Assembly (NCBI GenBank): GCA_043808095.1
Contig: JAZDFF010000001.1
Span: 1,628 to 65,627 of the forward strand
Origin: Candidatus Omnitrophota bacterium
GTDB taxonomy: Bacteria; Omnitrophota; Gorgyraeia; JAZDFF01
Length of the DNA stretch: 64,000 nucleotides
Direction of reading: 5' to 3'
Made by a program: the position numbers and the translations under genes. Below the pieces are notes generated by a model that was not told the origin of the DNA, made no database searches, and saw only the letters and a program-made list of their open reading frames with translations. Of the stretch, positions 29,742 through 58,902 are shown one piece after another. The first letter of the stretch is position 1; each line of letters opens with the position of its first letter.

Positions 29742-29810
29742 TGCAATTTTTAAAAAGAAAAATTGCATTGATTACAGCGATTTTTAAAAAAGATTACAGT
29801 GATTAAAGAA

Positions 29811-30791: not shown

Positions 30792-30845
30792 TAATATAAA
30801 TGATAAATTTCCAATATCCAATAATACCAATGAATGTCCAATTTC

Positions 30846-30921
30846 TCCCGAATACAGTTACCCAAAGAAGTTATGCTTCGGGATCCCGAAGTTATACTTC
30901 GCAGAGATACTACATTCGGGA
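30846..30921. repeat. MITE-like palindromic element (copy)
   Basis: TCCCGAATA...GCTTCGGGATCCCGAAGT...CATTCGGGA. Confidence 0.6.
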
Positions 30922-31014
30922 CAATGACCAATTAGATAATTGAGATTTGGGATTTCATTGGGATTTGGTAGTTATTGGTAATTATTGGGATTTAAGTGTA
31001 AAGGGGTTGTCCAA

Positions 31015-31623
31015 ATGAGAAAAGGGTTTACCTTAATTGAGGCGGTCATTGTGATATTTATCTTAGGGATTGTAGTTGCGGGTCTTATTCCTATCCTTTT
31101 CAAGGGCATTGAAATATCTACTTCTGGGATGTCTAGCCAAGAAGACTTAGCCAAAGCCAGGATTGCGCTGGAGAGGATGGTTAGTGAGATAAGGGATTCA
31201 GAATGTATTTGTTCCTGTCTTTGCTCGGGCGGTTCTTGTAATAGCAGTCTTATGTATATTCCAACTTCTAAAGATAAAAGAATTTATTTCGCGACACCAA
31301 GCGCTGACCCTAAAAATAAGATATTAAGAAACGTCTATACTATTACCAGCCCTGATCCCACAACTTGCGTAACACTTTGTAATTCCTCTTGGAATTCAAC
31401 TGCTACATCTTCGCAGGCACTCATTGATTCTCTTGCCTCAATGAGTCCTGGTAATACCTGTATTAGTTGTAGGGCATTTAACGAGAATGGAGTTGAACAA
31501 ACCTCTTATTTGGGCGTTATTAATAACAGCCGTTTATTAAAAATTAAATTTATCTTACATAAGAAATCCGGCGGAGAACTTCCCTTTGAGACACAGGTGG
31601 TGTTGAGGAAGAGGGTACCATAA
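31015..31623 (+). CDS. Type IV pilin/pseudopilin-like protein
   Basis: MRKGFTLIEAVIVIFILGIV prepilin motif; Cys-rich C-terminus. Start at ATG 31015 with an upstream AAAGGGG. Confidence 0.7.
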   Translation: MRKGFTLIEAVIVIFILGIVVAGLIPILFKGIEISTSGMSSQEDLAKARIALERMVSEIRDSECICSCLCSGGSCNSSLMYIPTSKDKRIYFATPSADPKNKILRNVYTITSPDPTTCVTLCNSSWNSTATSSQALIDSLASMSPGNTCISCRAFNENGVEQTSYLGVINNSRLLKIKFILHKKSGGELPFETQVVLRKRVP

Positions 31624-31698
31624 GGAATGAACGTCCAATATCCAATAAATACCAATAATACCAATGAATTTCCAATGACCAATAACCAATAAATACCA

Positions 31699-32052
31699 AT
31701 GGCCAAGGAATATGATATCAAAGACAGGACTTTTAGTTTTGCACAAAGGGTTTTAGAAATAGTAGGTATGTTGCCCAAGATAGTAGAATGCGATGTAATT
31801 CGTAAACAACTTACTGAGGCAGGGACTTCCGTAGGCGCAAACGTTGAAGAAGCAGACGGTGCCTTAAGCAAAAAGGATTTTATAAATAAGATGGGTATAG
31901 CCAGAAGAGAGGCTAAAGAGAGCAGATATTGGTTGAGGCTTATTTCAGGAAAGTATATTAATGAGGAGAAGATTGCCAAAGATATAATTGAAGCAAATGA
32001 ACTCAAAAATATCTTAAGTTCAATTATTGAGAATACTAATAAATCCAAATAA
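31699..32052 (+). CDS. Four-helix-bundle protein of the 23S rRNA-intervening-sequence / Avd family
   Basis: 117 aa. The pattern LxxxGxxxxxxE...SxxDFxxKxxIARREAKESRYWLRL matches this family, to which the DGR accessory protein Avd belongs. Confidence 0.6.
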   Translation: MAKEYDIKDRTFSFAQRVLEIVGMLPKIVECDVIRKQLTEAGTSVGANVEEADGALSKKDFINKMGIARREAKESRYWLRLISGKYINEEKIAKDIIEANELKNILSSIIENTNKSK

Positions 32053-32131
32053 TGGCTTATAAATTGGAAATTGGTATTTGGGATTTTATTGGAGGTTGGT
32101 ATTTATTGGTAATTATTGGGATTTAAAGAGT

Positions 32132-33766
32132 ATGAATCTTTTCACCAACAAGACTGGTTTTGCCTTATTTATCTCTATCTTCATCATCCTGGCTTTCTCA
32201 ACCATAGCGCTTCTTTGCTTTAATCTTCTGACTGTCCAGGACGATGCCGCCATCCGCAATCTCTATTCCATAAGGGCCTATTACCTGGCAGAGGCAGCCA
32301 GACAGCTTTGGTTAGAATACTATGTGCCTTGGGGGAGTGATTTTTGCAATGACGGCTCTGATGAAAAGCCAAACGAATTCCCTGATAATATTACCCGTAC
32401 CATAAACGGCGGAACACTTAATATTCATTATGTAGCTAGACAAGCACCTGAGCAGGCTACCACTGTGCAATTTTCCGGTTCGGTCCCTTTAAGTGGTCAG
32501 CAAATCAGCCGCAGCTTTACCCAGGATTTTTCTTTTCCCTTGGGTTCAGCTGCCTTTAATCTCAGGAGGGATTTGCAGAATTTTGTGTTGGCTACCTTTA
32601 ATGCTGGTTCAAGTAGTTGTTTTTATCTGGGAGGTGATACCGGACTTAGCGGGCAGAGCCTTCCACTATATTTCTTTGCTAAGGCGTGTAGTGATTGTGC
32701 TGGGTCACAATGCAACGAAGAATCCGACCCTCAGTATATTTTTCGTAGTTTTGGGAATGTCTATATGGGAAATTTTGATGTAGTACTTAGAATTGCACAG
32801 ATTGGAGATTCATCTAATCAGCGAAACCTTTATATGAATATACCCAGCGGTTCTAAAAAATTACATATATTTGAATGTTCAAGAATAAATGGCAATCTTT
32901 ATCGTCGCAATACTGACTTAAATTGTTTCCCAATTATTAATTCCGGTTGGCAGGGTATGTGCTATGTTTACCAGCTCGCAGGGGGGCCTTGTCCTAGCTG
33001 TAACAGTTGTTGTAAAGATTCCAATTGCGATTCTTCTTGTTTCGTTTCTGACGCTGGCTGGCCAGCTTCACCACCACAACCTATCCCCAGCAAACCCGTT
33101 ATTGATAATAGTTATTTCAATCAGGAGCTTAAAATTGCATTTCAGAGCGGAAGCACTTCTGGTTCTCCCCTTTCTGGTGACTTAGGAAAGAGGAATCGCT
33201 ATTTTAATCTGGCTAATTTGAATATTGATGGTGATATCAGCGGCGGGCCTGCTAATATTGTAACTACGGGCAGGATACTTATTGCTGATAATGTGAAGAT
33301 AGGCGAGAAAATAACTCTTATATGCGGGGATGATGTTTCCAATACTGACCCAAATGAAGAATATATTTATTTAGGCTCAGATAACGTAATAGGCGGCACC
33401 TATTCTGGCGGCCAGATTTCAGGCGGAGGAAGCCTTATATATAGTCGTAATGACAGTACTAGCCTTACATACGCTCCGCTTTATATTCCTGACGGTGCAA
33501 GGATAAAGGCAAGCATATTATCGCCAGGATTAGTGTGGATAAATAGCCAGGATAGTTGGAATATCTGGGGCACAGTTTATTCTGGAAGCGTTATATCAAT
33601 CACAGGAGGTCAGGGAGAACTTCGTGGTAGGATTTTTAGCGACGCCCCTGCACCGGATCCTTCAAAAGATGGGCCCTTTAATATGACCCTTTATGAAGAA
33701 TCAAATCTTCCTTTAAGGCTTAAAGGCCTTTATAATATCTCCACCAGCAACTGGCGGGAGCAGTAG
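32132..33766 (+). CDS. PilX-like large secreted protein, paralog 1 (pilin-type N-terminal anchor, Cys-rich variable body)
   Basis: N-terminus KTGFALFISIFIILAFSTIALLCFNLL is a PilX_N-like helix. C-terminus ...RLKGLYNISTSNWREQ is shared with the paralogs at 33951 and 35679. Confidence 0.65.
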   Translation: MNLFTNKTGFALFISIFIILAFSTIALLCFNLLTVQDDAAIRNLYSIRAYYLAEAARQLWLEYYVPWGSDFCNDGSDEKPNEFPDNITRTINGGTLNIHYVARQAPEQATTVQFSGSVPLSGQQISRSFTQDFSFPLGSAAFNLRRDLQNFVLATFNAGSSSCFYLGGDTGLSGQSLPLYFFAKACSDCAGSQCNEESDPQYIFRSFGNVYMGNFDVVLRIAQIGDSSNQRNLYMNIPSGSKKLHIFECSRINGNLYRRNTDLNCFPIINSGWQGMCYVYQLAGGPCPSCNSCCKDSNCDSSCFVSDAGWPASPPQPIPSKPVIDNSYFNQELKIAFQSGSTSGSPLSGDLGKRNRYFNLANLNIDGDISGGPANIVTTGRILIADNVKIGEKITLICGDDVSNTDPNEEYIYLGSDNVIGGTYSGGQISGGGSLIYSRNDSTSLTYAPLYIPDGARIKASILSPGLVWINSQDSWNIWGTVYSGSVISITGGQGELRGRIFSDAPAPDPSKDGPFNMTLYEESNLPLRLKGLYNISTSNWREQ

Positions 33767-33950
33767 AAAAGGATTGGGACAATTAAGTAGTAGTTTCGTC
33801 TTAAAAGGTTATAGGGTTGCGGTTACGTATCGTATGAAAAGTTATCGTTGGTCGTTTATCGTATAAATACGACAGACAAAACTGATACACGATGGACGAT
33901 ACGTGTCCGAGGCCGAAACCGATAAAACGTCAGACAAGGTTTTATTAATC

Positions 33951-35501
33951 ATGCATCTACCTATCAATAAAAGTGGCTTTGCTCTTTTTATCTCTATCTT
34001 CATCATCCTGGCATTTTCCACCATCGCCCTGCTTTGCTTTAATCTTTTAACTGTCCAGGACGATGCCGCTATCCGCAATCTCTACTCCATCCGTGCCTAT
34101 TACCTGGCAGAGGCAGCCAGGCAGCTGTGGTTAGAATACTATCCAAGCTGGGGAAATGATTTTACCAACACGACCCAGTTTCCCGATGGCACCACCCGCA
34201 CTTTAAATGGCGGACAATTTAGTTTCAGCTATATCAGTCGCAACAGCCGTTTGGCCAGCTTGAACTTTACCGGAAGCATCCCCCTGGGCACAACTACGGT
34301 TACCAAAGGTTTTAGGCAGGATTTTAGCGATTCATCCTCAGCGCTCTTTAGAGACTTAAATAATTTTGTCTTAGGGGTGTTTAATGATGATGAGGTCTAT
34401 GCCTTGGGTGGGGATAATCCTGCAGAAGGACGTTATTATTATACATACGGTTGCGCATGCGCACAAGGCTGTAGCACGACACTTAATCAAAGATACATCT
34501 TTCGTGCATTTGGTAATGTTTATCTCGATGGCCCTTCGTCTTCTCCTAATGGGAGACATCTATTTAAGTTAGGCGAGATTGGTTATCCTAATGATCCTAG
34601 TAAACCCAGAGAGCTCTATATAACAGGTAAAGGAATAGGTTCGGGGGTGCTTATTAGTGAATGTACAAGGATATACGGTAATCTTAGGATAACTAATGCC
34701 TACCTTCATCATCATCAACTTGAATCAGGTGGTTTTAGTAAGTGTAGATTAAATGTAGTTAGCAGTTCACCTTATTATTGTGTAAATCCTCTAGATCCCC
34801 CTAATGTTTGTGATGGTAGTTGCTATAGTGGTGCTGCTGGCACTTTACCTCAACCCGCAAAACCCGATATAAACACCTATTTTACGCAAGAACTGCAATT
34901 GGCCCAAAATTGTTCCAGCGGTGGTTATTGCTGGAATGGCAATGGTATTGCTGGTCCAACAACTTTAACTAAAAATGTTTATTATAGCGGCTCTGATGAT
35001 TTTTATTTAACGGGAGATATTAACGTCATTTTTCCGATAAATATCGTTATTAACTTAACCAATGCAACTAAATCAGTAAGGATCCAATCTGGAGCCAAGG
35101 TTTCAGGAAAGATAACCATTATCTCTTCTGGTAAGATTGTTACATATGGTGATGAAATAAGGGTCGGCGATATAAATTTAACCTGCCCTAGCTCTCTTAT
35201 TTATTCACATTCAGATGCTAATCCTGCCATAGAAATCAATGCCTCTCCTGAAATCAAGGCAAATATCTTATCTCGGGGTTCGGTTGATTTAGCAGAACAA
35301 CAGACTCCCAAGATTTGGGGCACAATCTATGCCTGGGAGATTGATGCCTATCAAGCTGGTCAGGCCAATATCTATGGCCCAGTATTCGTTGACCAGACAG
35401 AAATAGATAAACCCCTTAATCTTACCTTAAACGAGGCCCCGCTTTCCTTTAGAATCAGGGGCCTGTATAATATAGCCTCCAGCAACTGGCAGGAGCAGTA
35501 G
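33951..35501 (+). CDS. PilX-like large secreted protein, paralog 2
   Basis: Same N-terminal ~65 aa and C-terminal GLYNIASSNWQEQ as paralog 1; the middle is unrelated. Confidence 0.65.
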   Translation: MHLPINKSGFALFISIFIILAFSTIALLCFNLLTVQDDAAIRNLYSIRAYYLAEAARQLWLEYYPSWGNDFTNTTQFPDGTTRTLNGGQFSFSYISRNSRLASLNFTGSIPLGTTTVTKGFRQDFSDSSSALFRDLNNFVLGVFNDDEVYALGGDNPAEGRYYYTYGCACAQGCSTTLNQRYIFRAFGNVYLDGPSSSPNGRHLFKLGEIGYPNDPSKPRELYITGKGIGSGVLISECTRIYGNLRITNAYLHHHQLESGGFSKCRLNVVSSSPYYCVNPLDPPNVCDGSCYSGAAGTLPQPAKPDINTYFTQELQLAQNCSSGGYCWNGNGIAGPTTLTKNVYYSGSDDFYLTGDINVIFPINIVINLTNATKSVRIQSGAKVSGKITIISSGKIVTYGDEIRVGDINLTCPSSLIYSHSDANPAIEINASPEIKANILSRGSVDLAEQQTPKIWGTIYAWEIDAYQAGQANIYGPVFVDQTEIDKPLNLTLNEAPLSFRIRGLYNIASSNWQEQ

Positions 35502-35678
35502 AAAATGATTGTAGAGATTATAAATCAAAATGCAAAATTCAGGTTTAGGGGTTAGTAGGATTAAGTAGGGAGTAGTAAGGGTAAGAAAGGGATAAATTAT
35601 AAAAACCCATCCTAACCCCTTCTAACCCTTTCTATCCCTTCCTAACCCTTAAATCTTTGATTTTTATCTTACAAAAGT

Positions 35679-37295
35679 ATGAATCTATCCACTCACAAAG
35701 GTTTTGCCTTATTTATCTCTATCTTCATCATCCTGGCATTTTCAACCATTGCCTTACTTTGTTTTAATCTCTTGACGGTCCAGGATGATGCAGCCATCCG
35801 TAATCTCTACTCCATCCGTGCATATTACCTGGCAGAGGCAGCCAGGCAACTCTGGTTGGAATACTATGCACCCTGGGGCGCAGATTTTACTATTAGTAGT
35901 CAATTCCCTTCAGTAACCAAGACCTTAGCAGTAAATCAATTCAGTATCAATTATTCTCCTTATGGCCAGGATGCCGGCCCACTTACTCAGCAGAGAAAAG
36001 CTCGAGTCCATTTTCAAGGAATAATTCTATCTATCCCTATCACTAGAACATTTTTTCTGGACATAGATGCTGAACCCAAGACTGCCTTAACCAGGACCTG
36101 CGCCTCTGACAAAAGAGACTGTCTGAGCGGTGATTTAAAGAATTTTGTTTTGAATTATAATGGCAGTTCTGATCTCAACTTGGCAGGAACATTAGATTAT
36201 TGTTGTTGTACTGGTTTTAATGGTAGTAGTTGTTGTGGTACTTATGGTTGTCCTTTTGGAGATTGTGTTGGTTATCCGCCTTTTAGAGGCCCTGTCGTCA
36301 CTGGGGATGTCTATTCGAATAGAAATGTTTATTTCAAATCCGGAGAGATTAACGGAAATCTTTATAGCAGTTCCAATATTCAGGTCCGTGAATGTGCAAG
36401 GATAATAAATGGTTCGGTATATCACGGCGGAGCGCTTAATTGTTGTCGTGTTTCTGGGTTAGTCCCGCCTCTTGTTTCTTGTAAATGTGATAATAGTTAT
36501 ACCTGTAACAATTATTGCTGCGGCGGTGGCCCTTGTCTAACTGATGGTGGCGCTTCCGGCCCTAAGCCGGCTCCTTCAAAGCCAGCGATTGATACTACAT
36601 ATTTTGATAAACAGATTGAGTGTGCCCAAACTTATGGCGAAGTGCCATCTGGTGGGACTAAAACTATCTCTAGTGATGTGAATTTAGGAACTACAGGAGA
36701 TATCTATGTTAATGGAAAGATAGTCATTAACTGCACCGGTGACTGCACCGGTGGGAGTACAAATATCTCTACTACTGGTAGGTCGTGTAATATAGTGGCT
36801 ACTGGTGATATTGAGGTCACGAGGTCACATATTTCTGAGCGGATAAACCTAATCAGTGGAGGCAGGATTTTGACGAATGGCGATCCAACCTATGGTCCAA
36901 CAGTAATCGGCGGTGATTATTCTGCCGGCCCTCCTGAGCAGGTCACGGGCGTGGGTTGTCTTCTCTATGCACGGGCACAAACCAATCCTATAGCAATTAT
37001 TAGAGATTCTATGGTTAAGGCAAGAATATTGACACCAGCATCGGGTTCAGTAAGCATAATAAGCGGAAGTAATGACTGCGCAGGAAAGATCTGGGGTATA
37101 GTCTATACAAAGACCACTGATCTATCGGATACACGTAAATGTCCGAGTATTGTTGGCAGTATATTTACAGACAGTCTCTCTTCAACAATGCAATTTGGAC
37201 CTACCGAAGATGGTACTGGCAATTCCAATCTTTTTCTTCCTCTGAGGCTTAGAGGCCTTTATAATATCTCTACCAACAACTGGCAGGAGCAGTGA
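35679..37295 (+). CDS. PilX-like large secreted protein, paralog 3
   Basis: Same N- and C-terminal modules as paralogs 1 and 2; very Cys-rich variable middle (CCCTGFNGSSCCGTYGCPFGDC...). Confidence 0.65.
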   Translation: MNLSTHKGFALFISIFIILAFSTIALLCFNLLTVQDDAAIRNLYSIRAYYLAEAARQLWLEYYAPWGADFTISSQFPSVTKTLAVNQFSINYSPYGQDAGPLTQQRKARVHFQGIILSIPITRTFFLDIDAEPKTALTRTCASDKRDCLSGDLKNFVLNYNGSSDLNLAGTLDYCCCTGFNGSSCCGTYGCPFGDCVGYPPFRGPVVTGDVYSNRNVYFKSGEINGNLYSSSNIQVRECARIINGSVYHGGALNCCRVSGLVPPLVSCKCDNSYTCNNYCCGGGPCLTDGGASGPKPAPSKPAIDTTYFDKQIECAQTYGEVPSGGTKTISSDVNLGTTGDIYVNGKIVINCTGDCTGGSTNISTTGRSCNIVATGDIEVTRSHISERINLISGGRILTNGDPTYGPTVIGGDYSAGPPEQVTGVGCLLYARAQTNPIAIIRDSMVKARILTPASGSVSIISGSNDCAGKIWGIVYTKTTDLSDTRKCPSIVGSIFTDSLSSTMQFGPTEDGTGNSNLFLPLRLRGLYNISTNNWQEQ

Positions 37296-47280: not shown

Positions 47281-47622
47281 ATTGACTCCTTTAATGAATA
47301 ATATCACAGATGATTACAGATCTACCTTTAAATTTCAGATTTTCGCAGATGGGTACAGATAAGTTAATCAGTGTCCATCTTGTAGTTTTTCCCGCTAAGC
47401 GGGATCCCGCTGGAATCTTTTATTTTGGTACGGGATAATCTGTGCTAATCTGTGGATAAATATAACTAAGTTCGGATTTTATTTGAGTATACTTGAAAAC
47501 AGATTTTTGTCAAGGTAAAATGAGTGAGGGCATAAGTTATGTCGCCAAAGTCAATAAACAGTTCCATAACTTATGTGCTTTATTGGAAAAGGGCGGTATA
47601 ATCGAATTATAGGAGAGCTCAA

Positions 47623-48423
47623 ATGAAAAAGATATTATTACTTGGTTTATCAGTGTTATTTATTTGTCAAATTTGTTTTGCCCAAGAAGCAGCACCTCAA
47701 ACCAGCCCCAAATATAAAGAACAACCACTTACTCTTATCATCAAATCAGACAAAAAAGTGTATGAAGTTGGGGAGGATATAAAAGTTAATTTTAAGTTTA
47801 TAAATCAATCGGAAGATACCATAAAGATAAAAGTTGGTAGGCAAGATTTGTATAATTTCTTTGATTTTTTTATATCACGAAATTGGGGTAAGCCAAGAAT
47901 AATCGGGGGAGCGAATGTTGAAGATATAAAGGAGGAAAAAATTGCCCCCGGCGAATCTTATAGTTTTGATGGATTAATTAATGAACTAGATATGAGGGCG
48001 ATGAGGCCAATATTTTATGAACCTGGTAGAGATAATACAGGTAGATATAAGATAACCATTACATATCGTGGTGATATAACCATCACTTCTAACACCATCA
48101 CCATAGAGGTCAAAGAGAGGCAGTTTAAAAATTTGTTTGAAAAGCAGTTTTATCAGATAAAGAACGGAATGAGCAGAGAGCAGGTTATTAGTCAGTTAGG
48201 TCAGCCATTTGAAAAACGGATTCATACATTGCCAGCAGGGCCATTCTGGGGTCCTCAAGAGGGTTTGGCTTCAATTTTAAAACCAGGGGCTAAATTTGAA
48301 GAGTGGGGATATCAAAAAGACGGTACTACCTACTTGATTTGGTTCGGTTCTCTTGAGGTAAAACCTGAAGCTGAATGGAAAGTTATAGGCAAGACCTTAT
48401 TTCCCACTGGAGCGGTATTTTAA
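47623..48423 (+). CDS. Secreted protein: N-terminal beta-sandwich-like domain plus C-terminal BamE/SmpA_OmlA-like domain
   Basis: Signal peptide MKKILLLGLSVLFICQICFAQEA. The C-terminus KNGMSREQVISQLGQP...W.Y resembles BamE. The N-domain is paralogous to the next gene (DKKVYEVGEDI vs DKKIYYVGDQI). Confidence 0.5.
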   Translation: MKKILLLGLSVLFICQICFAQEAAPQTSPKYKEQPLTLIIKSDKKVYEVGEDIKVNFKFINQSEDTIKIKVGRQDLYNFFDFFISRNWGKPRIIGGANVEDIKEEKIAPGESYSFDGLINELDMRAMRPIFYEPGRDNTGRYKITITYRGDITITSNTITIEVKERQFKNLFEKQFYQIKNGMSREQVISQLGQPFEKRIHTLPAGPFWGPQEGLASILKPGAKFEEWGYQKDGTTYLIWFGSLEVKPEAEWKVIGKTLFPTGAVF

Positions 48424-48455
48424 TTCACCTCTAATAGACAAAGGAGCAACCCAAG

Positions 48456-49130
48456 ATGAAAAAAACGCTAGTATTTTGTTTAGTATTATTCTTTACTTCT
48501 TTAGGCTGCCAGATTAAGGAAAATAATGCGCAGGTAAATTCCTTAAAAACCGAAACTTTATCCGAGGCCAATATCGGAGCCTGGTCAGAGACAGTCGATG
48601 GCCTGCGTAGTAGGATTGCAACTGATAAAAAAATTTACTATGTCGGAGACCAGATAATTTTTTCACTCACCTGGGAAAACCTTAATAACAAAGAGGTGTT
48701 AATAAATTTTAGGGAAGATAGGCTGCTTCAAGGGATGATGTCCTTTAAAAACCAAGGTGGCAGAGGGCTTTTATCCAGGCTAATAACGTTAGAATTTGCG
48801 CCCGTATATCAAAAAAAGATTCCTAGCCATGGTTTATACTCGTATGAGTTGGTAGGTAAATTTACCAGAAAGACTCCGGATGATGTAAACCGGTTATTTG
48901 TATTAGGTAGTATTCCAGAAGACATTGAGAACTTTTATGGAAACATTGTTTTGGAGTTTTCTACTAAGACATTGTCAGAAATACCTGTTTTAATCGGTAA
49001 ATCCGGCAAGTTTTTTGTATCGCTCAATTATGAGATGTCGCCTGACTCTTATTTTGCCAAGAAAGAATCCCTGGCCTGGACAGGAAGGATTGAATCCAGG
49101 GAAGTGATGTTTGAGGTAAGAGGCAAATAA
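48456..49130 (+). CDS. Lipoprotein (signal LGC) paralogous to the N-domain of the preceding gene
   Basis: Lipobox FTSLGC with a shared N-domain motif; 1-nt junction to the helicase gene. Confidence 0.45.
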   Translation: MKKTLVFCLVLFFTSLGCQIKENNAQVNSLKTETLSEANIGAWSETVDGLRSRIATDKKIYYVGDQIIFSLTWENLNNKEVLINFREDRLLQGMMSFKNQGGRGLLSRLITLEFAPVYQKKIPSHGLYSYELVGKFTRKTPDDVNRLFVLGSIPEDIENFYGNIVLEFSTKTLSEIPVLIGKSGKFFVSLNYEMSPDSYFAKKESLAWTGRIESREVMFEVRGK

Positions 49131-52082: not shown

Positions 52083-52320
52083 TTTATACTCCGCGGCCTG
52101 AAAACCGCGCCCTTTAGGGCGCGGATAAGATGTGGCCGCTTGAGTATTCCGCCCAAGGAACCCCGGGCTTTAGCCCGGGTGGGCTCCATTTTTTGAGAGT
52201 TAAAACATTCTGGCTTTCAAGAGGTTAGTGAAATTTTTTCAAATGAAGCCCAGACTTATGGAGCCTGCTTGACACCAAACAGGCGATTGCGAACATAAGT
52301 TGTGTGCTCATTAAAATACC

Positions 52321-52349
52321 TTGACAAATGTCGAAAAAAATAATATACT
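52321..52349 (+). promoter_or_regulatory. Perfect sigma70 promoter (TTGACA-17 nt-TATACT) driving a short structured transcript
   Basis: Exact consensus hexamers with a 17-nt spacer, read directly from the sequence. Confidence 0.45.
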
Positions 52350-52355
52350 TAAATA

Positions 52356-52465
52356 AATACTTTTTAAAAGTTTTTTGTGGCTTAGGCGACCAAACTTGGC
52401 CACGGATTCCGAGTTTCGGAATAAGGGAGGTTGCTTCTAAAAGATAGAAGCAACCTTTTTTATTT
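52356..52465 (+). ncRNA. Candidate ~110-nt small RNA ending in an intrinsic terminator
   Basis: Predicted +1 ~7 nt after the -10. Hairpins GUGGC...GCCAC and UUCCG-AGUUU-CGGAA, an exposed AAGGGAGG, then GGUUGCUUCU-loop-AGAAGCAACC followed by UUUUUUAUU. Confidence 0.35.
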
Positions 52466-52593
52466 AGGTAAGCGAGGAAGCGCTTTCTTTTTAAAACAGC
52501 CCTTCACAAAACTAGTTCAGGGCTGTTGATTGCAGTGATTTCAAAAAAGATTACAGCGATTTATCGTCGAGCATTAATCTTTGTAATCTGATT

Positions 52594-52687
52594 TTCCCGC
52601 TTTGCGGGATCCCGCTGGAAATTTTCTATTGTGCGGGATAATCTCTGTAATCAAGGGCGAAACGATTTTTGTGAAGCCCTATTTAAG
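52594..52687 (+). promoter_or_regulatory. Conserved ~90-nt leader element (copy 2) upstream of the 1956-aa surface protein
   Basis: ~90% identical to 20213-20302, with the same GCGGGATCCCGC palindrome and AGGGC...GCCCT hairpin just before the RBS. Confidence 0.45.
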
Positions 52688-52700
52688 GGAGGATAAAAAG

Positions 52701-55700
52701 ATGATGGGAATAAAAAAATTAATAAGTGTATTAATTTTAGGTTGCGTATTAATATTATTGAATAATCCTTCCCTTTTAGCAGAAGAGGGTCAATGGAAGT
52801 CCTTGGATGAAGGAATTCCTTCGCTAACTGCTCCCCAGGCTTCAGTACTTAAGTCTACTGATTCAACTGTCCATTTAAGGATACAGGTCCCTGGTTTTGA
52901 AGTTAAGCAAAATGAAGAACAGGGCGTAGTCTATCAACAAATCCGTCTTCCTCAGGCAAGCTTGCTTCCTGAAATAGGCAAACCGATGCTTCCCCGGCTT
53001 ATCAGGATTATCGCCGTGCCTAAAGAATGTAATCTTTCCGATATCAAGTTAGAATTTTCTCCTACCAAAATCCAGACCTTGGAAAACTACTTAGTTTATC
53101 CTCTGCCTGATTTAGACGATAAAAAAGATATCTTTGTTAAAGACGAACTTTTCTATGAAAAAGACGTTTTTTATCCCGAACAGGTGGTAAAGGTTGAATC
53201 TATAGGCCTGATGCGCGACCAGAAAATTCTTAAGATTCAAATCTGTCCTATACAATATAATCCTAAGACAAAACAACTCAAGGTATATAAAGACCTGATA
53301 ATCAAGGTAAACTTTCCTTCTGGTATAGTGAGTTCATCTACGGGAGTAGGACCTCTTGAACATGTGGCTAACCTGGCTCTATTAAATTATGAATCCAGGC
53401 CTCAAGAAGAGCCAGAAGAAGGCGGTAAATCAGGGAATGTTATCTATCCCACAAATTTGAAAACCGGTACAAACAATGCTGATTATATTATCATTGCTGC
53501 TCCTCTGCTTTGGCAGGACAGGGATACCAACGGATTGGTTACTTTTGCTAACCATCGCGCTACCTATAATAACTGGAATGTGGCAGTGGTAAATAGAGAT
53601 GATATCTATAATCAATTTAGCGGCACCACTGATGATGACAAGATTAAGGCCTTTATTACCTATGCCTATAATAATGTCGCTAACCATTGGCATGCGCCTC
53701 GTATGGGCGATGACCATACTGGATTTGTGCTTTTAATGGGAGACGCGCGTTCAGCTGCCGGTACAGGCCATCTACCCACACATATCTCTATTCTTGTTGA
53801 CCCTATTAAATATGAACGTATTGCTACTGACCACTGGTATGCCTGTATAAATGATGATGACGGCAGCGGTATGGTTGATGATAATGACCGCATGGCTGAT
53901 CTTTTTATTGGCCGGTTTTGCACAGGAGGCGATGACTGGGCCCAGAGAGTTCTGGATAAGACCCGCTTCTTTGATATTGCCGGAATTCCTAGCCCCAATT
54001 GGAAAGGAAAGATTGGCCTTTGGTGCGGCTATGGAAGCCAAGATGCCAACAGGATCAGCGAGCTTAGAGATACAATCTATCCTCATATTGAACAGCTGGC
54101 CGGCACTAATTCTTTTTTTGAGGTAAGCGATAAGGAATTTAGTACAGATCATACTAATTTAAATGATTTTAAGGATGACTTTAAGAACTATTTTAATTTA
54201 GGCAGAGGGATTGTTATTGACAATAGTCATGGTGACTACAATCTGTGGCAGTGGTCCAAAAATTTGTCTACGTTTGTAAACTTCGCTACTGATGATGTAG
54301 ACACTCTGAATAATGGTAGCAAAACTCCTCTGGTTCTGAGTTTTTCTTGTAGCACAGCGAGGTTTGACTATATCGGCAAAGGAGGTCAAGGCGTTGATCC
54401 CAATTTTGAGTCTTTAGCTGAAAGGTTTACCGAGATAGCTAACAATAAAGGTGCGGTAGCCTTTTGGGGGGCAACACGCGATACTAATTACCATGGAGAT
54501 TTTGAGTATACTGATACTATGATTCCGGCAGTCTTAGAATACGGCCTAAGCAATCTGGGTCAGGCTATTCTTTATACCAAACTCACCTGCTCTACAGTTT
54601 ATAATGGGGATATCATATTTAATCTGGTGGGTGATCCGGGTCTAGGGCTCTATGGCACTGTCCCAGGTTTTATCACTGACCTGCAGATTACCAGTGATAA
54701 TATCCAGACCGCTTCGGTTGGTTCTGATATTAGAATAACCGCTAAAGTAGAGAATATGACTGTTGTAGCAGCAACAAACGTCTGGGTGCGCTTCTATGAC
54801 GGCGACCCTACCAATGGTGGCATTCAGATAGGCTCTGACCAATTAATTAGCTCAATTCCCAGGTTTGGCAGTCAGACCGCAGAGGTCCTCTGGATTAATC
54901 CCTCCCAGACAGCGCATACCATATATGTGGTGGTTGATCCTGATAATACCATCACTGAATTTAATGAGGAAAATAATAAGGCCTCTACGGTAGTTCTCCT
55001 GGGATTTTCAGTCACTCCGGGTTATTATATTGACTCTTCGGCAATAGTAGCGGATGTAAATAATGACGGTGATAAGGAGATAATCGTAGGCTGTAATGAC
55101 TACAAAATTTATGTTTGGCAATCAAACGCTCAAGCATTACCCGGCTGGCCTATTTCAACAGGTGGTTCTGTGGAATCTTCTCCTGCTGTAGCTGATCTAG
55201 ACGGAGATGGAGATTTGGAGATAATTTTCAGTAGTAATAATGGTTATGTCTATGCCTGGCACCATAATGATGGACCTGATGCTGGCGATGAAGCAGATCC
55301 GGTTGCGGGTTGGCCAATTTCTATAGGCGGTCAAGTCCGTGCCACTCCAGTTGTTTTTGACTTAGACAATGATGGTGATTTAGAGATTATTGCTGCCTCA
55401 ACCAATGGCAAGGTCTATGCCTGGCATCACAATGGCCAGCCTTTTGCTTCTTGGCCAGGAGGTTATTTACAGGCAGCAGGAGCAATTTATTCTTCACCCG
55501 CAGTGGGTGATATTGATGGACAAGGCAGTGTAGAGATAGTAGTAGGCAGCGACGATGGCAAGGTCTATGCCTGGCATGCTCATAATGGCCAGGCCTTGAC
55601 TAATTGGCCAGTTGTAACCAACCCAACCTTACCCATACGTTCTTCACCCAGTTTAGCGGATTTAGACCGCGACGGTTTTCTCGATGTGGTAGTTGGTTCC

Positions 55701-58571
55701 ACCAATGGTAGGATGTACGCCTTTAAGTATGACGGCAGCCCTGTTACCGGTTGGTCAGGCGGAGTAGCAACCGCTGGTGCAATATATTCTTCACCCTCCA
55801 TCGCGGATATTAATAAAGACGGTGAATTAGAGGTAGTGGTGGGTTCTTATGATAACAAGGTCTATGCCTTTAAGTATGATGGAAGTCTTCTTTCTGGTAA
55901 TTGGCCAGTAACTACTGGCAATGATATCTATTCCTCGCCCTCATTATCTGACGTAAATGGTGATGGTAATATTGATGTGGTAGTGGGTTCTTATGACCAG
56001 CATCTTTATGTCTTGGATAAAAATGGCGGAGTTGTTGGTTCTCCTTTTACAACCTCAGGCAGAATTAGGTCGTCACCTGCAATCGTAGATATGGATGGTG
56101 ATGAACGGCCTGAGATATTAGTGGGTTCTTATGAGCAGTTGCATGTGTTTAGGGCAGGCGGCAGTGCAGTTGAACCCGAAGATATGCCTTGGTCGCAATT
56201 CCGCAAAGAGCCAAACAGGAAGGCAGTCTATAGTCGGCTCGCCCAAAGCCAGATTACCAACAGCCCAATGGATTATGCCACAATTCAAAAGGCCATATAC
56301 GCAGCTCAACCCGAAGAAACCATCTTAGTGCCAGAAGGTACATATTATGAAAATATCTCTTTCAAAAGCAAATCTATTACTTTAAAGGGTACAGAGGGTC
56401 CAGGAGGAGTGAAGAAGAGCATCTTAGATGGAGGTGGTGTTGGTTCGGTAGTTTATATGAGTTATAGCGAAGATTATCAGACAGGACCCTTTAATCCCGT
56501 CCTAGAAGGATTTAAGATTACCCATGGCTCAGGATATATGGGAGATTTGGGAGGGGGGGTTCTTATAAGTGGTAACTATCCACCTAATTCAAGACCGCAG
56601 GTCCTCCACAATTATATAACAGAAAACGAAGCTGATTATGGTGGTGGTATTGACCTTGGGGGGAGTTCGGCAATTATTAAACAAAATATTATCAGCAACA
56701 ACACAGCTCATATCGCTGGAGCAGCAATTTGTGCTATTGGGTATAGTATTAGCAACGAATCGCCGCTCATTACCAATAATGTAATCTATGCCAATACCGC
56801 GCCTGATTATAATCCTGATGAATGGGTTAGTGGTGGCATTATTTTTATCACCCAATCTGGAATCGACCCCGTAGATACACCGACATATTATCCTATAATT
56901 GCTAATAATACCATTACCTTAAATGTGGAGTGGTATGTTGGTAGAGGTCCAGCCGTGGTTATTAATAATCCTTTCCCCAACTGGGTGGATGCCAAGTTAG
57001 TCAATAATATCATTGTGAACAATTCCAAGGGGATTTGTTATTATTCCTCAAATCAGCCTTCAGGAGAACCTTCTCCTGAATCAATTGCCTATAATGATGT
57101 GTATAACAACACCGGCGGAAATTATGTGGGGCTTTCTGACAGAACTGGCATACAAGGCAATATCTCTGTTGAACCTAAGTTTAGAAACGGACTCTACTTA
57201 AGAGATCATATCTCTCCTTGTATTGATGCTGGTATTCCTGATCCCGATGGTAACCTAAATAATAATGAGGGCCAGCTTTGGGATTGGTCCCTTGAGCCTG
57301 ATTTTTCTGCTGGCCATATCAATATGGGCGCCTTTGGCAATACTTCCATAGCAGAACTTAGCTGCCATGTTCCTTATTTTCAGGACGATTCTTCCTGGGG
57401 TTATCCTATTAATAGTTATTATTGGGAGTGGCCGGTAGATCAGCCCGTTAATCTCACTGTTCATGCCGTTGATTGTGATGGCGATACGCTTAATATTAAT
57501 TTCGGGTTTTTGCCTCCAGGCCTATCGGCAACAGTTACACCGGGTAATCCTGCTTACCTTGTTATTACAGGCACACCCAATGTTACGGGAACTTATTCCA
57601 CCACATTTATTGTCCAGGATAACAGCCAGTATTTATTCTCTAAGACAGTGCCAGTCACCTTTAACATATTTAAATATGAGCCTGCGTCGCCATCATGTCC
57701 TTATTTATATCTGTGGAATGGCTCTGATTATGTCTTTGAGAATGACCTCTTCCCATCTGGAAATCCCAAGGAATACACTGATTATTATCTCTTGATGAAG
57801 GAATTAATACCAAAGGATGAGGTCTATTCTTTAAAGATAAAGGAGGAATTAGAGGAGACTTCTCATATAGACAAGGTATCGCTTTTACAGATAGACCATC
57901 CTGAAGGAGTAAAGATTGCTCCTACCCTGGAAGGTAAATTATATACCTATAAAGAACCTCTTACAGCTGCCGCAAATGTCGTCAATAGCCAGGGCGAGGA
58001 TATTACCGAGTTAATTTCTACCGGCGCTGATAATAAAGAGTATTTTGGCAGGCAGGGAGAGGAGATTATGCTTAGGTTTGCGAAAAACGGCCTAAGAGAT
58101 GAAACCAGACTTATCCTGAGTTCTGACCTGCCTAGGCCAAAACCCAATTATGCCAAATCTATCCATCTTCAGTTCAAGGACAAAAAAGGCCAGTGGCAGA
58201 ATCTCGTAGTCCTGCATCCCCATGAATACTGGGATATCTGGGCAGTGGATTTATCACCTTACCTTGAGGATTTAGGCAAAGATGAGGATTTGGAGATTAA
58301 GATCTTCTTTACTCAAGACCACAAGTTAGACTTCGTGGCCTTAGATACATCGCAACAAGCCCCCATTGTCGTAACCGAGCTTCCGCTTTTAAAGGCTACG
58401 CACTCTAAAGATAACGATATACGCTTAAAGTTGGAAACCTCTGATAATGACTACACCCGGACAATCAAAGGAGACTACATTGATTTAGAATTCCCATATC
58501 TAAGTAAGCCTACTCAAAAAAGAAGCTTTATCTTTGTCAGTGAGGGTTGGTATAGGCAAAACAAGAAATAG
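52701..58571 (+). CDS. Giant secreted multidomain protein: C25 (gingipain)-like cysteine peptidase + FG-GAP/VCBS beta-propeller + right-handed parallel beta-helix + C-terminal domain
   Basis: Signal peptide MMGIKKLISVLILGCVLILL; RBS AAGGGAGG. The candidate catalytic dyad (NSHGD...SFSCSTARFDY) resembles the Kgp/Rgp C-x-TAQFDY region. There are at least six FG-GAP-like repeats (DLDGDGDLEII...YVYAWHHN). Beta-helix repeats run from about 56280 to 57300. Confidence 0.75.
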   Translation: MMGIKKLISVLILGCVLILLNNPSLLAEEGQWKSLDEGIPSLTAPQASVLKSTDSTVHLRIQVPGFEVKQNEEQGVVYQQIRLPQASLLPEIGKPMLPRLIRIIAVPKECNLSDIKLEFSPTKIQTLENYLVYPLPDLDDKKDIFVKDELFYEKDVFYPEQVVKVESIGLMRDQKILKIQICPIQYNPKTKQLKVYKDLIIKVNFPSGIVSSSTGVGPLEHVANLALLNYESRPQEEPEEGGKSGNVIYPTNLKTGTNNADYIIIAAPLLWQDRDTNGLVTFANHRATYNNWNVAVVNRDDIYNQFSGTTDDDKIKAFITYAYNNVANHWHAPRMGDDHTGFVLLMGDARSAAGTGHLPTHISILVDPIKYERIATDHWYACINDDDGSGMVDDNDRMADLFIGRFCTGGDDWAQRVLDKTRFFDIAGIPSPNWKGKIGLWCGYGSQDANRISELRDTIYPHIEQLAGTNSFFEVSDKEFSTDHTNLNDFKDDFKNYFNLGRGIVIDNSHGDYNLWQWSKNLSTFVNFATDDVDTLNNGSKTPLVLSFSCSTARFDYIGKGGQGVDPNFESLAERFTEIANNKGAVAFWGATRDTNYHGDFEYTDTMIPAVLEYGLSNLGQAILYTKLTCSTVYNGDIIFNLVGDPGLGLYGTVPGFITDLQITSDNIQTASVGSDIRITAKVENMTVVAATNVWVRFYDGDPTNGGIQIGSDQLISSIPRFGSQTAEVLWINPSQTAHTIYVVVDPDNTITEFNEENNKASTVVLLGFSVTPGYYIDSSAIVADVNNDGDKEIIVGCNDYKIYVWQSNAQALPGWPISTGGSVESSPAVADLDGDGDLEIIFSSNNGYVYAWHHNDGPDAGDEADPVAGWPISIGGQVRATPVVFDLDNDGDLEIIAASTNGKVYAWHHNGQPFASWPGGYLQAAGAIYSSPAVGDIDGQGSVEIVVGSDDGKVYAWHAHNGQALTNWPVVTNPTLPIRSSPSLADLDRDGFLDVVVGSTNGRMYAFKYDGSPVTGWSGGVATAGAIYSSPSIADINKDGELEVVVGSYDNKVYAFKYDGSLLSGNWPVTTGNDIYSSPSLSDVNGDGNIDVVVGSYDQHLYVLDKNGGVVGSPFTTSGRIRSSPAIVDMDGDERPEILVGSYEQLHVFRAGGSAVEPEDMPWSQFRKEPNRKAVYSRLAQSQITNSPMDYATIQKAIYAAQPEETILVPEGTYYENISFKSKSITLKGTEGPGGVKKSILDGGGVGSVVYMSYSEDYQTGPFNPVLEGFKITHGSGYMGDLGGGVLISGNYPPNSRPQVLHNYITENEADYGGGIDLGGSSAIIKQNIISNNTAHIAGAAICAIGYSISNESPLITNNVIYANTAPDYNPDEWVSGGIIFITQSGIDPVDTPTYYPIIANNTITLNVEWYVGRGPAVVINNPFPNWVDAKLVNNIIVNNSKGICYYSSNQPSGEPSPESIAYNDVYNNTGGNYVGLSDRTGIQGNISVEPKFRNGLYLRDHISPCIDAGIPDPDGNLNNNEGQLWDWSLEPDFSAGHINMGAFGNTSIAELSCHVPYFQDDSSWGYPINSYYWEWPVDQPVNLTVHAVDCDGDTLNINFGFLPPGLSATVTPGNPAYLVITGTPNVTGTYSTTFIVQDNSQYLFSKTVPVTFNIFKYEPASPSCPYLYLWNGSDYVFENDLFPSGNPKEYTDYYLLMKELIPKDEVYSLKIKEELEETSHIDKVSLLQIDHPEGVKIAPTLEGKLYTYKEPLTAAANVVNSQGEDITELISTGADNKEYFGRQGEEIMLRFAKNGLRDETRLILSSDLPRPKPNYAKSIHLQFKDKKGQWQNLVVLHPHEYWDIWAVDLSPYLEDLGKDEDLEIKIFFTQDHKLDFVALDTSQQAPIVVTELPLLKATHSKDNDIRLKLETSDNDYTRTIKGDYIDLEFPYLSKPTQKRSFIFVSEGWYRQNKK

Positions 58572-58902
58572 ATTCCGATACTTTTAACAGTGGATTTAAA
58601 TTAAATAATATACTAGGATATTATTCCTTAAGCGTAATTTACCTTCTGTTATCTGCAAGACGCCTGCTTTCTTATGTCCTCCGAGTGTCTTAATCCTTGA
58701 CTTTGCTTAGGATTAGGAGTATACTAATCAAATTGAAATCTAGACTTACGGAATGATAATGAACGTAAGTTTGTGATTGAATTTGACCCTTGACATCTTT
58801 GATGTCAAGGGTTTAATTCGCAGACGCCCCGAAATTTCGGGGCTACAATTTATGTCATTTACTTTCCATAAATTGTCTGCTCATTTAAAGGGGGTGATTT
58901 TT

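What the first reader, a model, noticed from the sequence alone, without database searches (positions are those of the whole stretch)
52701..58571. 1956-aa secreted protease-adhesin: C25/gingipain-like peptidase fused to an FG-GAP beta-propeller and a parallel beta-helix
The putative catalytic His (~54228) and Cys (~54348, in SFSCSTARFDY) resemble the gingipain Kgp active-site region. Downstream are at least six FG-GAP/VCBS repeats (55020-56160), then a right-handed beta-helix (about 56280-57300), then a ~400-aa C-terminal domain of unknown fold. It is preceded by the conserved leader and the candidate sRNA. Such gingipain-like giant surface proteases are rare outside Bacteroidota. No T9SS-type C-terminal sorting signal is evident, so the export route is unclear.
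Basis: partly seen in the sequence, partly recalled or inferred. Interest (0 to 1): 0.6.

Follow-up and report, generated by a model that had tools for sequence, protein, structure and literature searches.

The report
Omnitrophota C25 protease with adhesin-like tail
This is a real 1956-residue secreted gingipain-family (C25) cysteine protease from an uncultured Omnitrophota bacterium, an ordinary member of a known family except that it ends in a widespread, so far undescribed 295-residue domain that also sits on pilus subunits and other secreted enzymes.

Summary
Pfam finds Propeptide_C25 (4e-25), Peptidase_C25 (3.8e-48), CARDB and FG-GAP repeats. His510 and Cys550 lie exactly at nt 54228 and 54348. 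They are invariant in 26 relatives and align to RgpB His211/Cys244. A predicted structure of residues 1-780 matches RgpB and Kgp (Foldseek E about 1e-17). The propeller has eight blades. The beta-helix is supported mainly through a homologous cassette. No T9SS C-terminal domain is present.

The protein is identical to NCBI MFH1201309.1, [quoted passage not shown], so the family assignment is already public. Large C25 proteins with FG-GAP and beta-helix domains are common in metagenomes, so the claim of rarity outside Bacteroidota is not supported.

The new element is the tail. It splits into a weak Ig-like domain and a 295-residue all-beta domain (pLDDT 91). That domain has no Pfam or NCBIfam model and no close solved fold. 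About 4,900 cluster representatives carry it, and in 86% of the best full-length hits it ends the protein. It is fused to C25 and S8 proteases, lectin-like domains and type IV pilins, in Omnitrophota and in archaea. I read it as a binding or docking module; this is inferred, not shown.

The parts
52321..52349 (+). Promoter-like site (TTGACA-17-TATACT, 11 of 12) upstream of the candidate small RNA
52356..52470 (+). Candidate ~110-nt structured RNA: three hairpins, the last a 19-bp stem followed by a U run. No Rfam family matches. Any link to the protease gene is untested.
   Evidence: z-score -5.5; best Rfam E 0.13-0.24, below gathering
52594..52659 (+). Repeated intergenic 'leader' element (core CCCGC-N3-GCGGGATYCCGC ... 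CGGGATAA). It is 92% identical to 20213-20278, and further copies lie upstream of the genes at 30288 and 47623.
52685..52693 (+). Ribosome-binding site AAGGGAGGA, 8 nt before the ATG
   Evidence: read directly
52701..58571 (+). Complete gene, 1956 aa plus stop. It is identical to NCBI MFH1201309.1.
52701..52781 (+). Sec-type signal peptide (MMGIKK / LISVLILGCVLILL / NNPSLLA|EEG). A lipobox-like LILGC at residues 11-15 means lipoprotein processing is not excluded.
   Evidence: read; helix 2-21 in the model; no dedicated predictor was run
52830..53396 (+). Gingipain-type N-terminal prodomain (Propeptide_C25, aa 44-232)
   Evidence: E 4.1e-25; Kgp/RgpB prodomains 5mun, 4ief; TM 0.80-0.84 to 4ief/5mun prodomains
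53484..54644 (+). Peptidase_C25 catalytic domain (aa 262-648), caspase-like clan CD fold
54228..54230 (+). Catalytic His510 (NSHGD), aligned to RgpB His211
54348..54350 (+). Catalytic Cys550 (SFSCST), aligned to RgpB Cys244 and to the Cys of PorU's ATCDF motif
54675..54986 (+). CARDB Ig-like domain (aa 659-762), in the position of the gingipain IgSF domain
   Evidence: E 4.7e-12; 2kut E 1.3e-10
55035..56150 (+). Eight-bladed FG-GAP/VCBS-type beta-propeller (aa 779-1150) with D-x-D/N-x-D-G loops
56274..57305 (+). Right-handed parallel beta-helix (about aa 1192-1535) with at least six PbH1-like turns
   Evidence: weak direct hits; homologous cassette with a significant Beta_helix hit
57432..57659 (+). 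Ig-like domain (He_PIG/Big_9-like, aa 1578-1653), below the Pfam cut-offs
   Evidence: the same position before the C-terminal domain in P0092 has He_PIG at 4.8e-11
57684..58568 (+). Uncharacterised conserved C-terminal domain (aa 1662-1956). It is all-beta, starts with a near-invariant Cys-Pro, and has no Pfam or NCBIfam model.

Best explanation
The gene encodes a Sec-exported, multi-domain zymogen of a clan CD, family C25 cysteine endopeptidase from an Omnitrophota bacterium that has an outer membrane. The N-terminal gingipain-type prodomain would keep the His510/Cys550 active site latent until it is removed. The catalytic domain is followed by a rigid extracellular arm: CARDB Ig domain, eight-bladed calcium-loop FG-GAP propeller, parallel beta-helix and an Ig-like domain. 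The arm ends in a 295-residue beta-sandwich domain that I read as a ligand-binding or docking module. The arm and terminal domain would hold the enzyme on a target surface, such as a host or prey cell envelope, a polymer matrix or the cell's own pilus, while the C25 head cleaves proteins there. Shown here: the family, the catalytic residues by homology, the domain order, the phylum, and the modular distribution of the terminal domain. Inferred: latency, secretion across the outer membrane (probably a type II-like system, not T9SS), binding by the terminal domain, and the biological target.
For: Family and active site. Peptidase_C25 hits at 3.8e-48 and Propeptide_C25 at 4.1e-25. H510 and C550 are invariant in 26 relatives. 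The family profile hits PorU at 4e-86, RgpB at 1.9e-62 and Kgp at 1.5e-36, with the GHG and C columns on RgpB H211/C244. The model of residues 1-780 (pLDDT 74, pTM 0.75) matches RgpB 1cvr at E 3.7e-17 (TM 0.64 per target), Kgp at 4.7e-17 and the prodomains at TM 0.8. Arm. CARDB, FG-GAP x8 and the beta-helix are supported. Host. The best PNPase relatives are all Omnitrophota at 53-65% identity, the NCBI name agrees, and LptD in the window implies an outer membrane. Terminal domain. The AF2 model has pLDDT 91 and pTM 0.89 and is all-beta. 4,884 cluster representatives match at E<=1e-3. Of the 168 full-length hits among the sequences in hand, 144 end the protein and 20 are internal or N-terminal. 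The domain is fused to C25 (P0084), to S8 subtilase with the same propeller/beta-helix/Ig cassette (P0089, 34-37% identity over about 1190 aa), and to LamG, TSP3, LVIVD and HYR/PKD domains. It is also fused to type IV pilin or pseudopilin N-termini. A pilin-CTD gene, a pilin gene and a C25-CTD gene sit in one locus. Partial fold matches are jelly-roll, CBM, receptor-binding and phage-tail domains. Context. Omnitrophota are proposed predators or parasites that use type IV pili and large adhesive or lytic surface proteins, with conserved type II-like secretion loci (PMC10066038; bioRxiv 10.1101/2023.11.21.568195).
Against: No activity, processing or localisation data exist. The third catalytic residue (RgpB Glu152) aligns to Gly445 in an uncertain stretch, and the S1 specificity residue cannot be mapped. 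The catalytic-domain model is only moderately confident, and its CARDB part is below pLDDT 50. His-Cys distance could not be measured. The fold matches of the terminal domain are weak (TM <= 0.32) and cover only half of it, so 'binding module' rests mostly on its fusion partners. Its strong preference for the extreme C-terminus, where relatives carry T9SS or FlgD-Ig tails, fits a sorting or anchoring role equally well. No secretion genes flank the gene. Related Omnitrophota have no such gene next to rpsO-pnp.
Confidence: 0.7

Rival explanations
1. The 295-residue C-terminal domain is a sorting or surface-anchoring signal, a functional analogue of the T9SS C-terminal domain or of dockerin, and not a ligand-binding module. 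It would direct cargo to a secretion or attachment machinery and might be cleaved at the conserved Cys-Pro boundary.
For: 86% of full-length occurrences end within 15 residues of the protein's C-terminus. The domain occupies the position where related C25 proteins carry Por_Secre_tail or FlgD_ig domains. Its cargo is very diverse: proteases, lectins, beta-helices. A near-invariant Cys-Pro follows Gly/Ser/Pro-rich linkers.
Against: 20 of 168 copies are internal or N-terminal. The domain is fused to type IV pilins, which already have their own export and assembly signal. It occurs in archaea without an outer membrane as well as in diderm Omnitrophota. At 295 residues with two beta-sandwich halves it is far larger than known sorting domains. 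No conserved partner gene was seen next to it.
Confidence: 0.25
2. The C25 domain works as a PorU-like signal peptidase or sortase that processes other secreted proteins, not as a degradative protease.
For: By single-sequence search the closest solved catalytic domain is PorU (6za2). The family profile scores PorU higher than RgpB. NCBIfam T9SS_sortase gives a partial hit at 2.6e-23.
Against: The NCBIfam PorU score is 81.7 bits against a cut-off of 420. The protein lacks the N-terminal insertion domain that PorU and most relatives have and instead has a gingipain-type prodomain directly before the catalytic domain. It has no T9SS tail. T9SS is not known in Omnitrophota (my own knowledge; not tested). 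A long propeller and beta-helix arm is not a feature of PorU.
Confidence: 0.05
3. The protein is a non-catalytic adhesin whose C25 domain has become a structural or binding module.
For: The putative third catalytic residue is not conserved in the alignment. NCBIfam lists inactivated protease homologues among T9SS cargo, and the best NCBIfam hit (through the propeller) is such a family. Most of the protein's mass is non-enzymatic.
Against: The His and Cys are intact and invariant across the family, along with the G347, R405, G501 and G644 framework positions. A full prodomain is retained, which only makes sense for a latent enzyme.
Confidence: 0.07
4. It is an ordinary nutritional exoprotease of a free-living cell. 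The propeller, beta-helix and terminal domains bind environmental polymers, as carbohydrate-binding modules do on secreted hydrolases, and it has no role in cell-cell attack.
For: The same C25 and S8 enzymes with targeting modules are described for polymer degradation in Cloacimonadota. The genomic neighbours are housekeeping genes. Jelly-roll/CBM-like partial fold matches were found.
Against: Nothing here contradicts it directly. Only the pilin fusions, the occurrence in DPANN archaea and the proposed lifestyle of the phylum point to cell-cell contact.
Confidence: 0.3

Closest known systems
Gingipains RgpB and Kgp of Porphyromonas gingivalis (MEROPS family C25, clan CD)
   Same: The order signal peptide, inhibitory N-terminal prodomain, caspase-like catalytic domain with a His...Cys dyad, Ig-like domain is the same. 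The predicted fold matches 1cvr and 6i9a best. Like RgpA and Kgp, the protease head is followed by non-catalytic, adhesin-type domains.
   Different: Identity in the structural alignment is only 12-18%. There is no T9SS C-terminal domain and no haemagglutinin/'cleaved adhesin' domains; an FG-GAP propeller, a beta-helix and a new C-terminal domain take their place. The host is Omnitrophota, not Bacteroidota. The S1 specificity residue is not identifiable.
Metagenomic large C25 proteins (for example P0001, P0002, P0008; Omnitrophica WOR_2 P0019; Poribacteria P0031)
   Same: P0001, P0002 and P0008 share the C25 + FG-GAP_3 architecture, P0001 and P0002 also with CARDB and P0002 with a beta-helix. 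P0001 and P0002 are 25-28% identical over 58-60% of the query.
   Different: They end in Por_Secre_tail or FlgD_ig domains. Most relatives also carry an extra PorU-like domain between the prodomain and the catalytic domain that is missing here.
P0089, an S8 subtilase with the same propeller, beta-helix, Ig and C-terminal domain cassette
   Same: The whole back half of about 1190 aa is homologous at 34-37% identity, including the terminal domain.
   Different: The protease head is a serine subtilase (Peptidase_S8, 4.6e-61), not C25. The arm is therefore a transferable cassette.
Modular type IV pilins that carry a grafted C-terminal adhesion module (for example Streptococcus sanguinis PilB/PilC; my own knowledge)
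   Same: P0044-46, P0049, P0082, P0083, P0085 and P0215 combine a pilin N-terminus and head with the same terminal domain as this protease. One such gene lies in the same locus as a C25 protease that also carries the domain.
   Different: The grafted module here is a different, undescribed fold. No adhesion has been shown.
PorU, the T9SS sortase (6za2)
   Same: The same peptidase family, and the best single-sequence PDB match to the catalytic domain.
   Different: It fails the NCBIfam cut-off by a wide margin (81.7 vs 420 bits), and it has neither PorU's N-terminal domain nor a T9SS tail.

Membership tests
Peptidase family C25 (MEROPS C25, clan CD) | Match to the curated family model above its threshold | tested here: met
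   PF01364 scores 165 bits (cut-off 23), E 3.8e-48, covering profile positions 1-372 of 374
Peptidase family C25 (MEROPS C25, clan CD) | Catalytic dyad in the order His then Cys, in the G-H-G and x-x-C motifs | tested here: met
   H510 and C550 are invariant in 26 sequences and align to RgpB H211/C244 and Kgp H216/C249 in chain numbering
Peptidase family C25 (MEROPS C25, clan CD) | Caspase-like alpha/beta fold | tested here: met
   Foldseek hits RgpB at 3.7e-17 and Kgp at 4.7e-17, then PorU, CHAT, separase and caspases. The model has pLDDT 74.
Peptidase family C25 (MEROPS C25, clan CD) | His and Cys side chains juxtaposed in the structure | not testable with these tools
   Model coordinates are not exposed; juxtaposition is inferred from homology only
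Peptidase family C25 (MEROPS C25, clan CD) | Third catalytic residue (RgpB Glu152 / Kgp Asp388) | tested here: inconclusive
   hmmalign places Gly445 at this column, in a poorly aligned stretch. Asp448 lies three residues away.
Peptidase family C25 (MEROPS C25, clan CD) | Cysteine-dependent endopeptidase activity | not testable with these tools
   Needs biochemistry
Gingipains in the strict sense (Rgp/Kgp) | N-terminal inhibitory prodomain | tested here: met
   PF08126 at 4.1e-25; 5mun and 4ief by sequence and by fold, TM 0.8
Gingipains in the strict sense (Rgp/Kgp) | T9SS C-terminal sorting domain | tested here: not met
   No PF18962 or other T9SS tail model hits at E<=1, whereas relatives P0001, P0006, P0011 and P0039 have PF18962
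Gingipains in the strict sense (Rgp/Kgp) | Arg- or Lys-specific S1 pocket (RgpB Asp163 / Kgp Asp516) | tested here: inconclusive
   RgpB Asp163 aligns to Tyr460 in an unreliable region
PorU-type T9SS sortase | NCBIfam NF033707 above its cut-off | tested here: not met
   81.7 bits against 420
FG-GAP/VCBS beta-propeller | Tandem repeats of about 50 aa with a calcium-type D-x-D-x-D-G loop, matching the repeat models | tested here: met
   FG-GAP_3 scores 154.6 bits over 7 stretches and FG-GAP 72.3 bits. Eight motif copies have a 46-55 aa period. Designed 8-blade propeller proteins in the PDB hit at 2e-12.
Right-handed parallel beta-helix (PbH1 / NosD / DUF1565) | Match to a beta-helix model above threshold | tested here: inconclusive
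   Direct hits are below cut-off (DUF1565 16.2 vs 20.3 bits; NosD 19.1 vs 300). The region is homologous to the P0089 segment that hits PF13229 at 1.9e-12, and six I..N.I..N turns are present.
Undescribed C-terminal domain family (defined here by profile A2) | About 295 aa, all-beta, starting C-P-x-(V/L)-x-x-W-x-G, with the conserved D-H, W173, H-K-L-D and G-x-Y motifs near the end | tested here: met
   34-43% identity to members; conserved positions; no Pfam hit in any of 32 members

The most novel reading that the evidence does not exclude
The 295-residue C-terminal domain is a previously undescribed cell-surface recognition or docking module. Ultra-small, host-dependent prokaryotes (Omnitrophota, and DPANN and other archaea) would graft it interchangeably onto pilus subunits and onto secreted proteases and lectin-like proteins. 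A pilus and its companion hydrolases would then be aimed at the same host or prey envelope, or the hydrolase would be docked on the pilus through CTD-CTD contact. The near-invariant unpaired Cys at its first strand might mediate covalent or metal-dependent attachment.
Probability: 0.3. Interest if true: 0.6.

Novelty: new member of a known kind. Interest (0 to 1): 0.35.

Why it matters
On its own the protease is a routine, already annotated C25 family member, so the original finding adds little. What could matter is the tail. It is a large, confidently folding domain family of several thousand sequence clusters that no curated library describes. It recurs at the end of secreted proteases, lectin-like proteins and type IV pilins in Omnitrophota and small archaea, lineages thought to live by attaching to other cells. 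If it proves to be the recognition or docking element, it would give an experimental handle on how these uncultured organisms target hosts or prey, and a marker for finding their attack proteins in metagenomes.

Tried and rejected
2. The scan of genome contigs with the whole protein found no relative. The exact-product look-up also found no contig. The organism was identified through PNPase and a cluster look-up.
3. Synteny: none of the 80 PNPase loci carries a C25 relative within 10 kb, so the gene's position gives no functional clue.
4. A single-sequence PDB search of the catalytic domain gave only a marginal PorU hit (E 0.023). A family profile was needed.
5. Hint/intein-like or Ntn-type autoprocessing at the conserved Cys-Pro of the terminal domain was considered. 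It was rejected for lack of any fold match and of the T-x-x-H block.
6. Only one copy of the terminal domain exists in the window. The three pilin-like paralogs at 32-37 kb do not contain it.
7. Rfam finds nothing at gathering thresholds in the window, or at E<0.01 in the upstream region.
8. My first motif search for the leader used the wrong spacer and found nothing. The corrected search is.
9. Base composition shows no sign of recent transfer of the gene.
Full report
**Observation**

The window has a single long ORF on the + strand. Its first ATG with a good ribosome-binding site (AAGGGAGGA, 8 nt upstream) is at 52701, and the stop ends at 58571, giving 1956 aa. His510 is at 54228-54230 in NSHGD. 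Cys550 is at 54348-54350 in SFSCSTARFDY. Base composition across the gene matches the rest of the window.

**Domain identification**

Pfam gives these hits:
- Propeptide_C25, aa 44-232, E 4.1e-25
- Peptidase_C25, aa 262-648, E 3.8e-48, 165 bits against a cut-off of 23, covering almost the whole model
- CARDB, aa 659-762, E 4.7e-12
- FG-GAP_3, E 9.7e-46, seven stretches

It also gives sub-threshold hits to DUF1565, Big_9 and He_PIG. NCBIfam adds only partial hits far below cut-off. T9SS sortase PorU scores 81.7 bits against 420, through the C25 domain. NosD scores 19.1 against 300. No T9SS C-terminal domain model hits at E<=1.

**Catalytic site and fold**

- In an alignment with 25 relatives, H510 and C550 are invariant, together with G347, R405, G501 and G644.
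- A profile of that alignment hits PorU (4e-86), RgpB (1.9e-62), Kgp (1.5e-36) and both gingipain prodomains in the PDB.
- Counting along the printed RgpB chain puts the profile's GHG and C columns on His211 and Cys244. hmmalign places the window's H510 and C550 on the same columns.
- RgpB Glu152 and the S1 residue Asp163 fall in a poorly aligned stretch, against Gly445 and Tyr460. The third catalytic residue and the specificity therefore stay open.
- AlphaFold2 on residues 1-780 gave pLDDT 74 and pTM 0.75. The prodomain and most of the catalytic core are confident; the CARDB part is not.
- Foldseek against the PDB ranks RgpB (E 3.7e-17, TM 0.64 per target) and Kgp (4.7e-17) first. The RgpB/Kgp prodomains follow (TM 0.80-0.84), then PorU, then CHAT, separase and caspases.

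One caveat remains: I could not measure the His-Cys distance, because model coordinates are not exposed.

**The arm**

A motif count shows eight propeller blades at aa 779-1150, with a period of 46-55 aa. Each blade has a D-x-D/N-x-D-G loop. Designed eight-blade propeller proteins in the PDB match at 2e-12.

The beta-helix (about aa 1192-1535) shows six I..N.I..N turns. It is 34% identical to the segment of P0089 that hits Pfam Beta_helix at 1.9e-12. I accept it as a parallel beta-helix, although the direct HMM hits are weak.

**The tail**

The first part is a weak Ig-like domain at aa 1578-1653. The second is a 295-aa domain at aa 1662-1956.

- The word-indexed search of the large protein collection found 5 relatives at 34-42% identity, and a profile found 36.
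- An exhaustive profile search of 1.84 billion cluster representatives found 4,884 at E<=1e-3 and 638 at E<=1e-30.
- No member hits any Pfam family over this region, and NCBIfam has nothing either.
- With a 32-sequence alignment AlphaFold2 gives pLDDT 91 and pTM 0.89, all beta.
- Foldseek finds only half-domain jelly-roll matches with TM <= 0.32. These include CBM22, APC10/Doc1, a beta-sandwich domain of iota-toxin Ib, xanthanase modules and phage tail proteins.
- Among the sequences in hand, 168 hits cover the full domain. 144 of these end within 15 residues of the C-terminus and 20 are internal or N-terminal.
- Conserved positions include a near-invariant Cys-Pro at the first strand (160 of 163), W14, G16, D-N-N, D-H, W173, W185, H-x-x-D, D221, H240, D254, R280 and G-x-Y. 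The Cys has no conserved partner.

**Fusion partners of the tail domain**

- C25 + Ig (P0084, 42% identity in the tail).
- S8 subtilase with the same propeller, beta-helix and Ig cassette (P0089, 34-37% identity over about 1190 aa). The arm is thus a cassette that is swapped between protease heads.
- LamG, TSP3, LVIVD and HYR/PKD domains, and possibly a C13-like peptidase.
- About eight proteins with a type IV pilin or pseudopilin N-terminus.

In one contig (L081), whose gene order matches two Omnitrophota loci (L083, L084), a pilin-CTD gene, a plain pilin gene and the C25-Ig-CTD gene lie in a row. L083 and L084 keep pilin-CTD, pilin and a C25 peptidase, but there the peptidase lacks the domain.

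Named members come from Omnitrophota (the target, P0083, P0114), Micrarchaeota (P0088), Nanoarchaeia (P0054) and Bathyarchaeia (P0067).

**Organism and context**

- The best relatives of the neighbouring PNPase are all Candidatus Omnitrophota, at 53-65% identity.
- The protein is 100% identical to NCBI MFH1201309.1, 'MAG: C25 family cysteine peptidase [Candidatus Omnitrophota bacterium]'. A 99% identical fragment exists in another assembly.
- The window encodes LptD, so the cell has an outer membrane.
- The neighbours are housekeeping genes: ArgRS, RecJ, an AddA-like helicase-nuclease, rpsO, pnp and ftsK. No secretion genes are adjacent.
- Related Omnitrophota have no such gene beside rpsO-pnp.

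**Mechanism**

The N-terminus reads as a Sec signal peptide. A lipobox-like LILGC within it leaves lipoprotein processing possible. The prodomain implies a latent zymogen, as in gingipains. After export the arm and tail would position the C25 head on a surface.

I favour a binding or docking role for the tail for three reasons. It is grafted onto pilins, which need no further sorting signal. It occurs in archaea as well as in diderm bacteria. It is sometimes internal.

The alternative is that the tail is a sorting or anchoring domain. Its strong C-terminal preference, and its position where relatives carry T9SS or FlgD-Ig tails, support that view. I keep it at about 0.25.

Passage across the outer membrane is not explained by the window. 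A type II-like system is the most plausible route, given the conserved T2SS-like loci reported next to large surface proteins in this phylum (bioRxiv 10.1101/2023.11.21.568195).

The proposed predatory or parasitic lifestyle of Omnitrophota and their reliance on type IV pili (PMC10066038) make host or prey envelopes an attractive target. Plain nutritional proteolysis on polymers is not excluded.

**Comparison and novelty**

The protein is a member of family C25. It is not a gingipain orthologue: identity is 12-18%, and it has no T9SS tail and no haemagglutinin domains. It is not PorU either.

C25 + FG-GAP architectures, with CARDB and a beta-helix in P0002, already exist in metagenomic proteins (P0001, P0002, P0008). 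Large C25 relatives occur in Omnitrophica and Poribacteria. Dockerin-bearing C25 enzymes are described in Cloacimonadota (PMC8542988). The 'rare outside Bacteroidota' argument therefore fails, and the finding as submitted is a new member of a known kind that NCBI has already labelled correctly.

The part worth following up is the undescribed C-terminal domain family.

**Upstream elements**

The 'conserved leader' is a repeated element whose core is CCCGC-N3-GCGGGATYCCGC. It has four + strand copies upstream of ugd, a pilin gene, a secreted ORF and this gene. It is not specific to the protease.

A near-consensus promoter at 52321-52349 is followed by a strongly folding 115-nt stretch that ends in a terminator-like hairpin. 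No Rfam family matches it. I did not pursue it further.

Noticed in passing
window 20215-20234, 30171-30190, 47391-47410, 52596-52615 (extended element about 52594-52659): Four + strand copies of a palindromic intergenic element (CCCGC-N3-GCGGGATYCCGC ... CGGGATAA), against 0.01 expected by chance. Each lies 40-220 nt upstream of a gene tied to the cell surface: UDP-glucose dehydrogenase at the head of a sugar-nucleotide cluster, a pilin, a signal-peptide ORF and the C25 gene. It could be a shared regulatory site or RNA leader.
   Followed up: partly
window 52321-52470: A near-consensus sigma-70 promoter (11 of 12) is followed by a 115-nt stretch that folds into three hairpins (z = -5.5). The last is a 19-bp stem plus a U run. 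No Rfam match was found. This is a candidate small RNA between the helicase gene and the protease gene.
   Followed up: partly
window 3007-3031, 22216-22258, 52241-52283, 58731-58773: A REP-like hairpin repeat (AAATGAAGCCCAAACTTACGG...CGTAAGTTTG) sits just downstream of four genes, including both sides of the protease locus. Other intergenic repeat families (GATTACAGTGATT, TTCGGGATCCCGAAG, CACAGATTAGCACAGAT) are also frequent.
   Followed up: no
window 29136-37295: Three genes have type IV pilin-like N-termini (29136, 30288, 30985), two of them with Pfam N_methyl hits. They are followed by three tandem paralogs of 530-560 aa (32078, 33903, 35679). The paralogs share an identical pilin-like hydrophobic N-terminus, are Cys-rich, have no Pfam match, and are separated by conserved repeats. 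This may be a variable minor-pilin or tip-adhesin set.
   Followed up: partly
window 47623-49130: Two adjacent signal-peptide proteins (266 and 224 aa) have no Pfam match. They lie just upstream of the helicase gene, and the first is preceded by the same leader element as the protease.
   Followed up: no
whole window: 41 of the 42 ORFs of at least 150 aa are on the + strand, and cumulative GC skew rises steadily. This is an extreme strand bias over 64 kb.
   Followed up: no
L081 7989-13640; L083 10001-15621; L084 10001-21710: Conserved locus in L081, L083 and L084/L085 (L084 is an Omnitrophota genome): CHASE2-GGDEF (opposite strand), minor pilins, pilin fused to the new C-terminal domain, a plain pilin, then a C25 peptidase. 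In L081 the peptidase also carries the domain. The linkers of the pilin fusion contain repeated CTGIPCSICNGAGC Cys-rich motifs.
   Followed up: partly
P0081 (Logan assembly), aligned to target aa 1286-1940: A 99% identical fragment of this gene in another public assembly diverges at both ends. This is consistent with assembly breaks or frameshifts and shows that the same population was sequenced elsewhere.
   Followed up: partly
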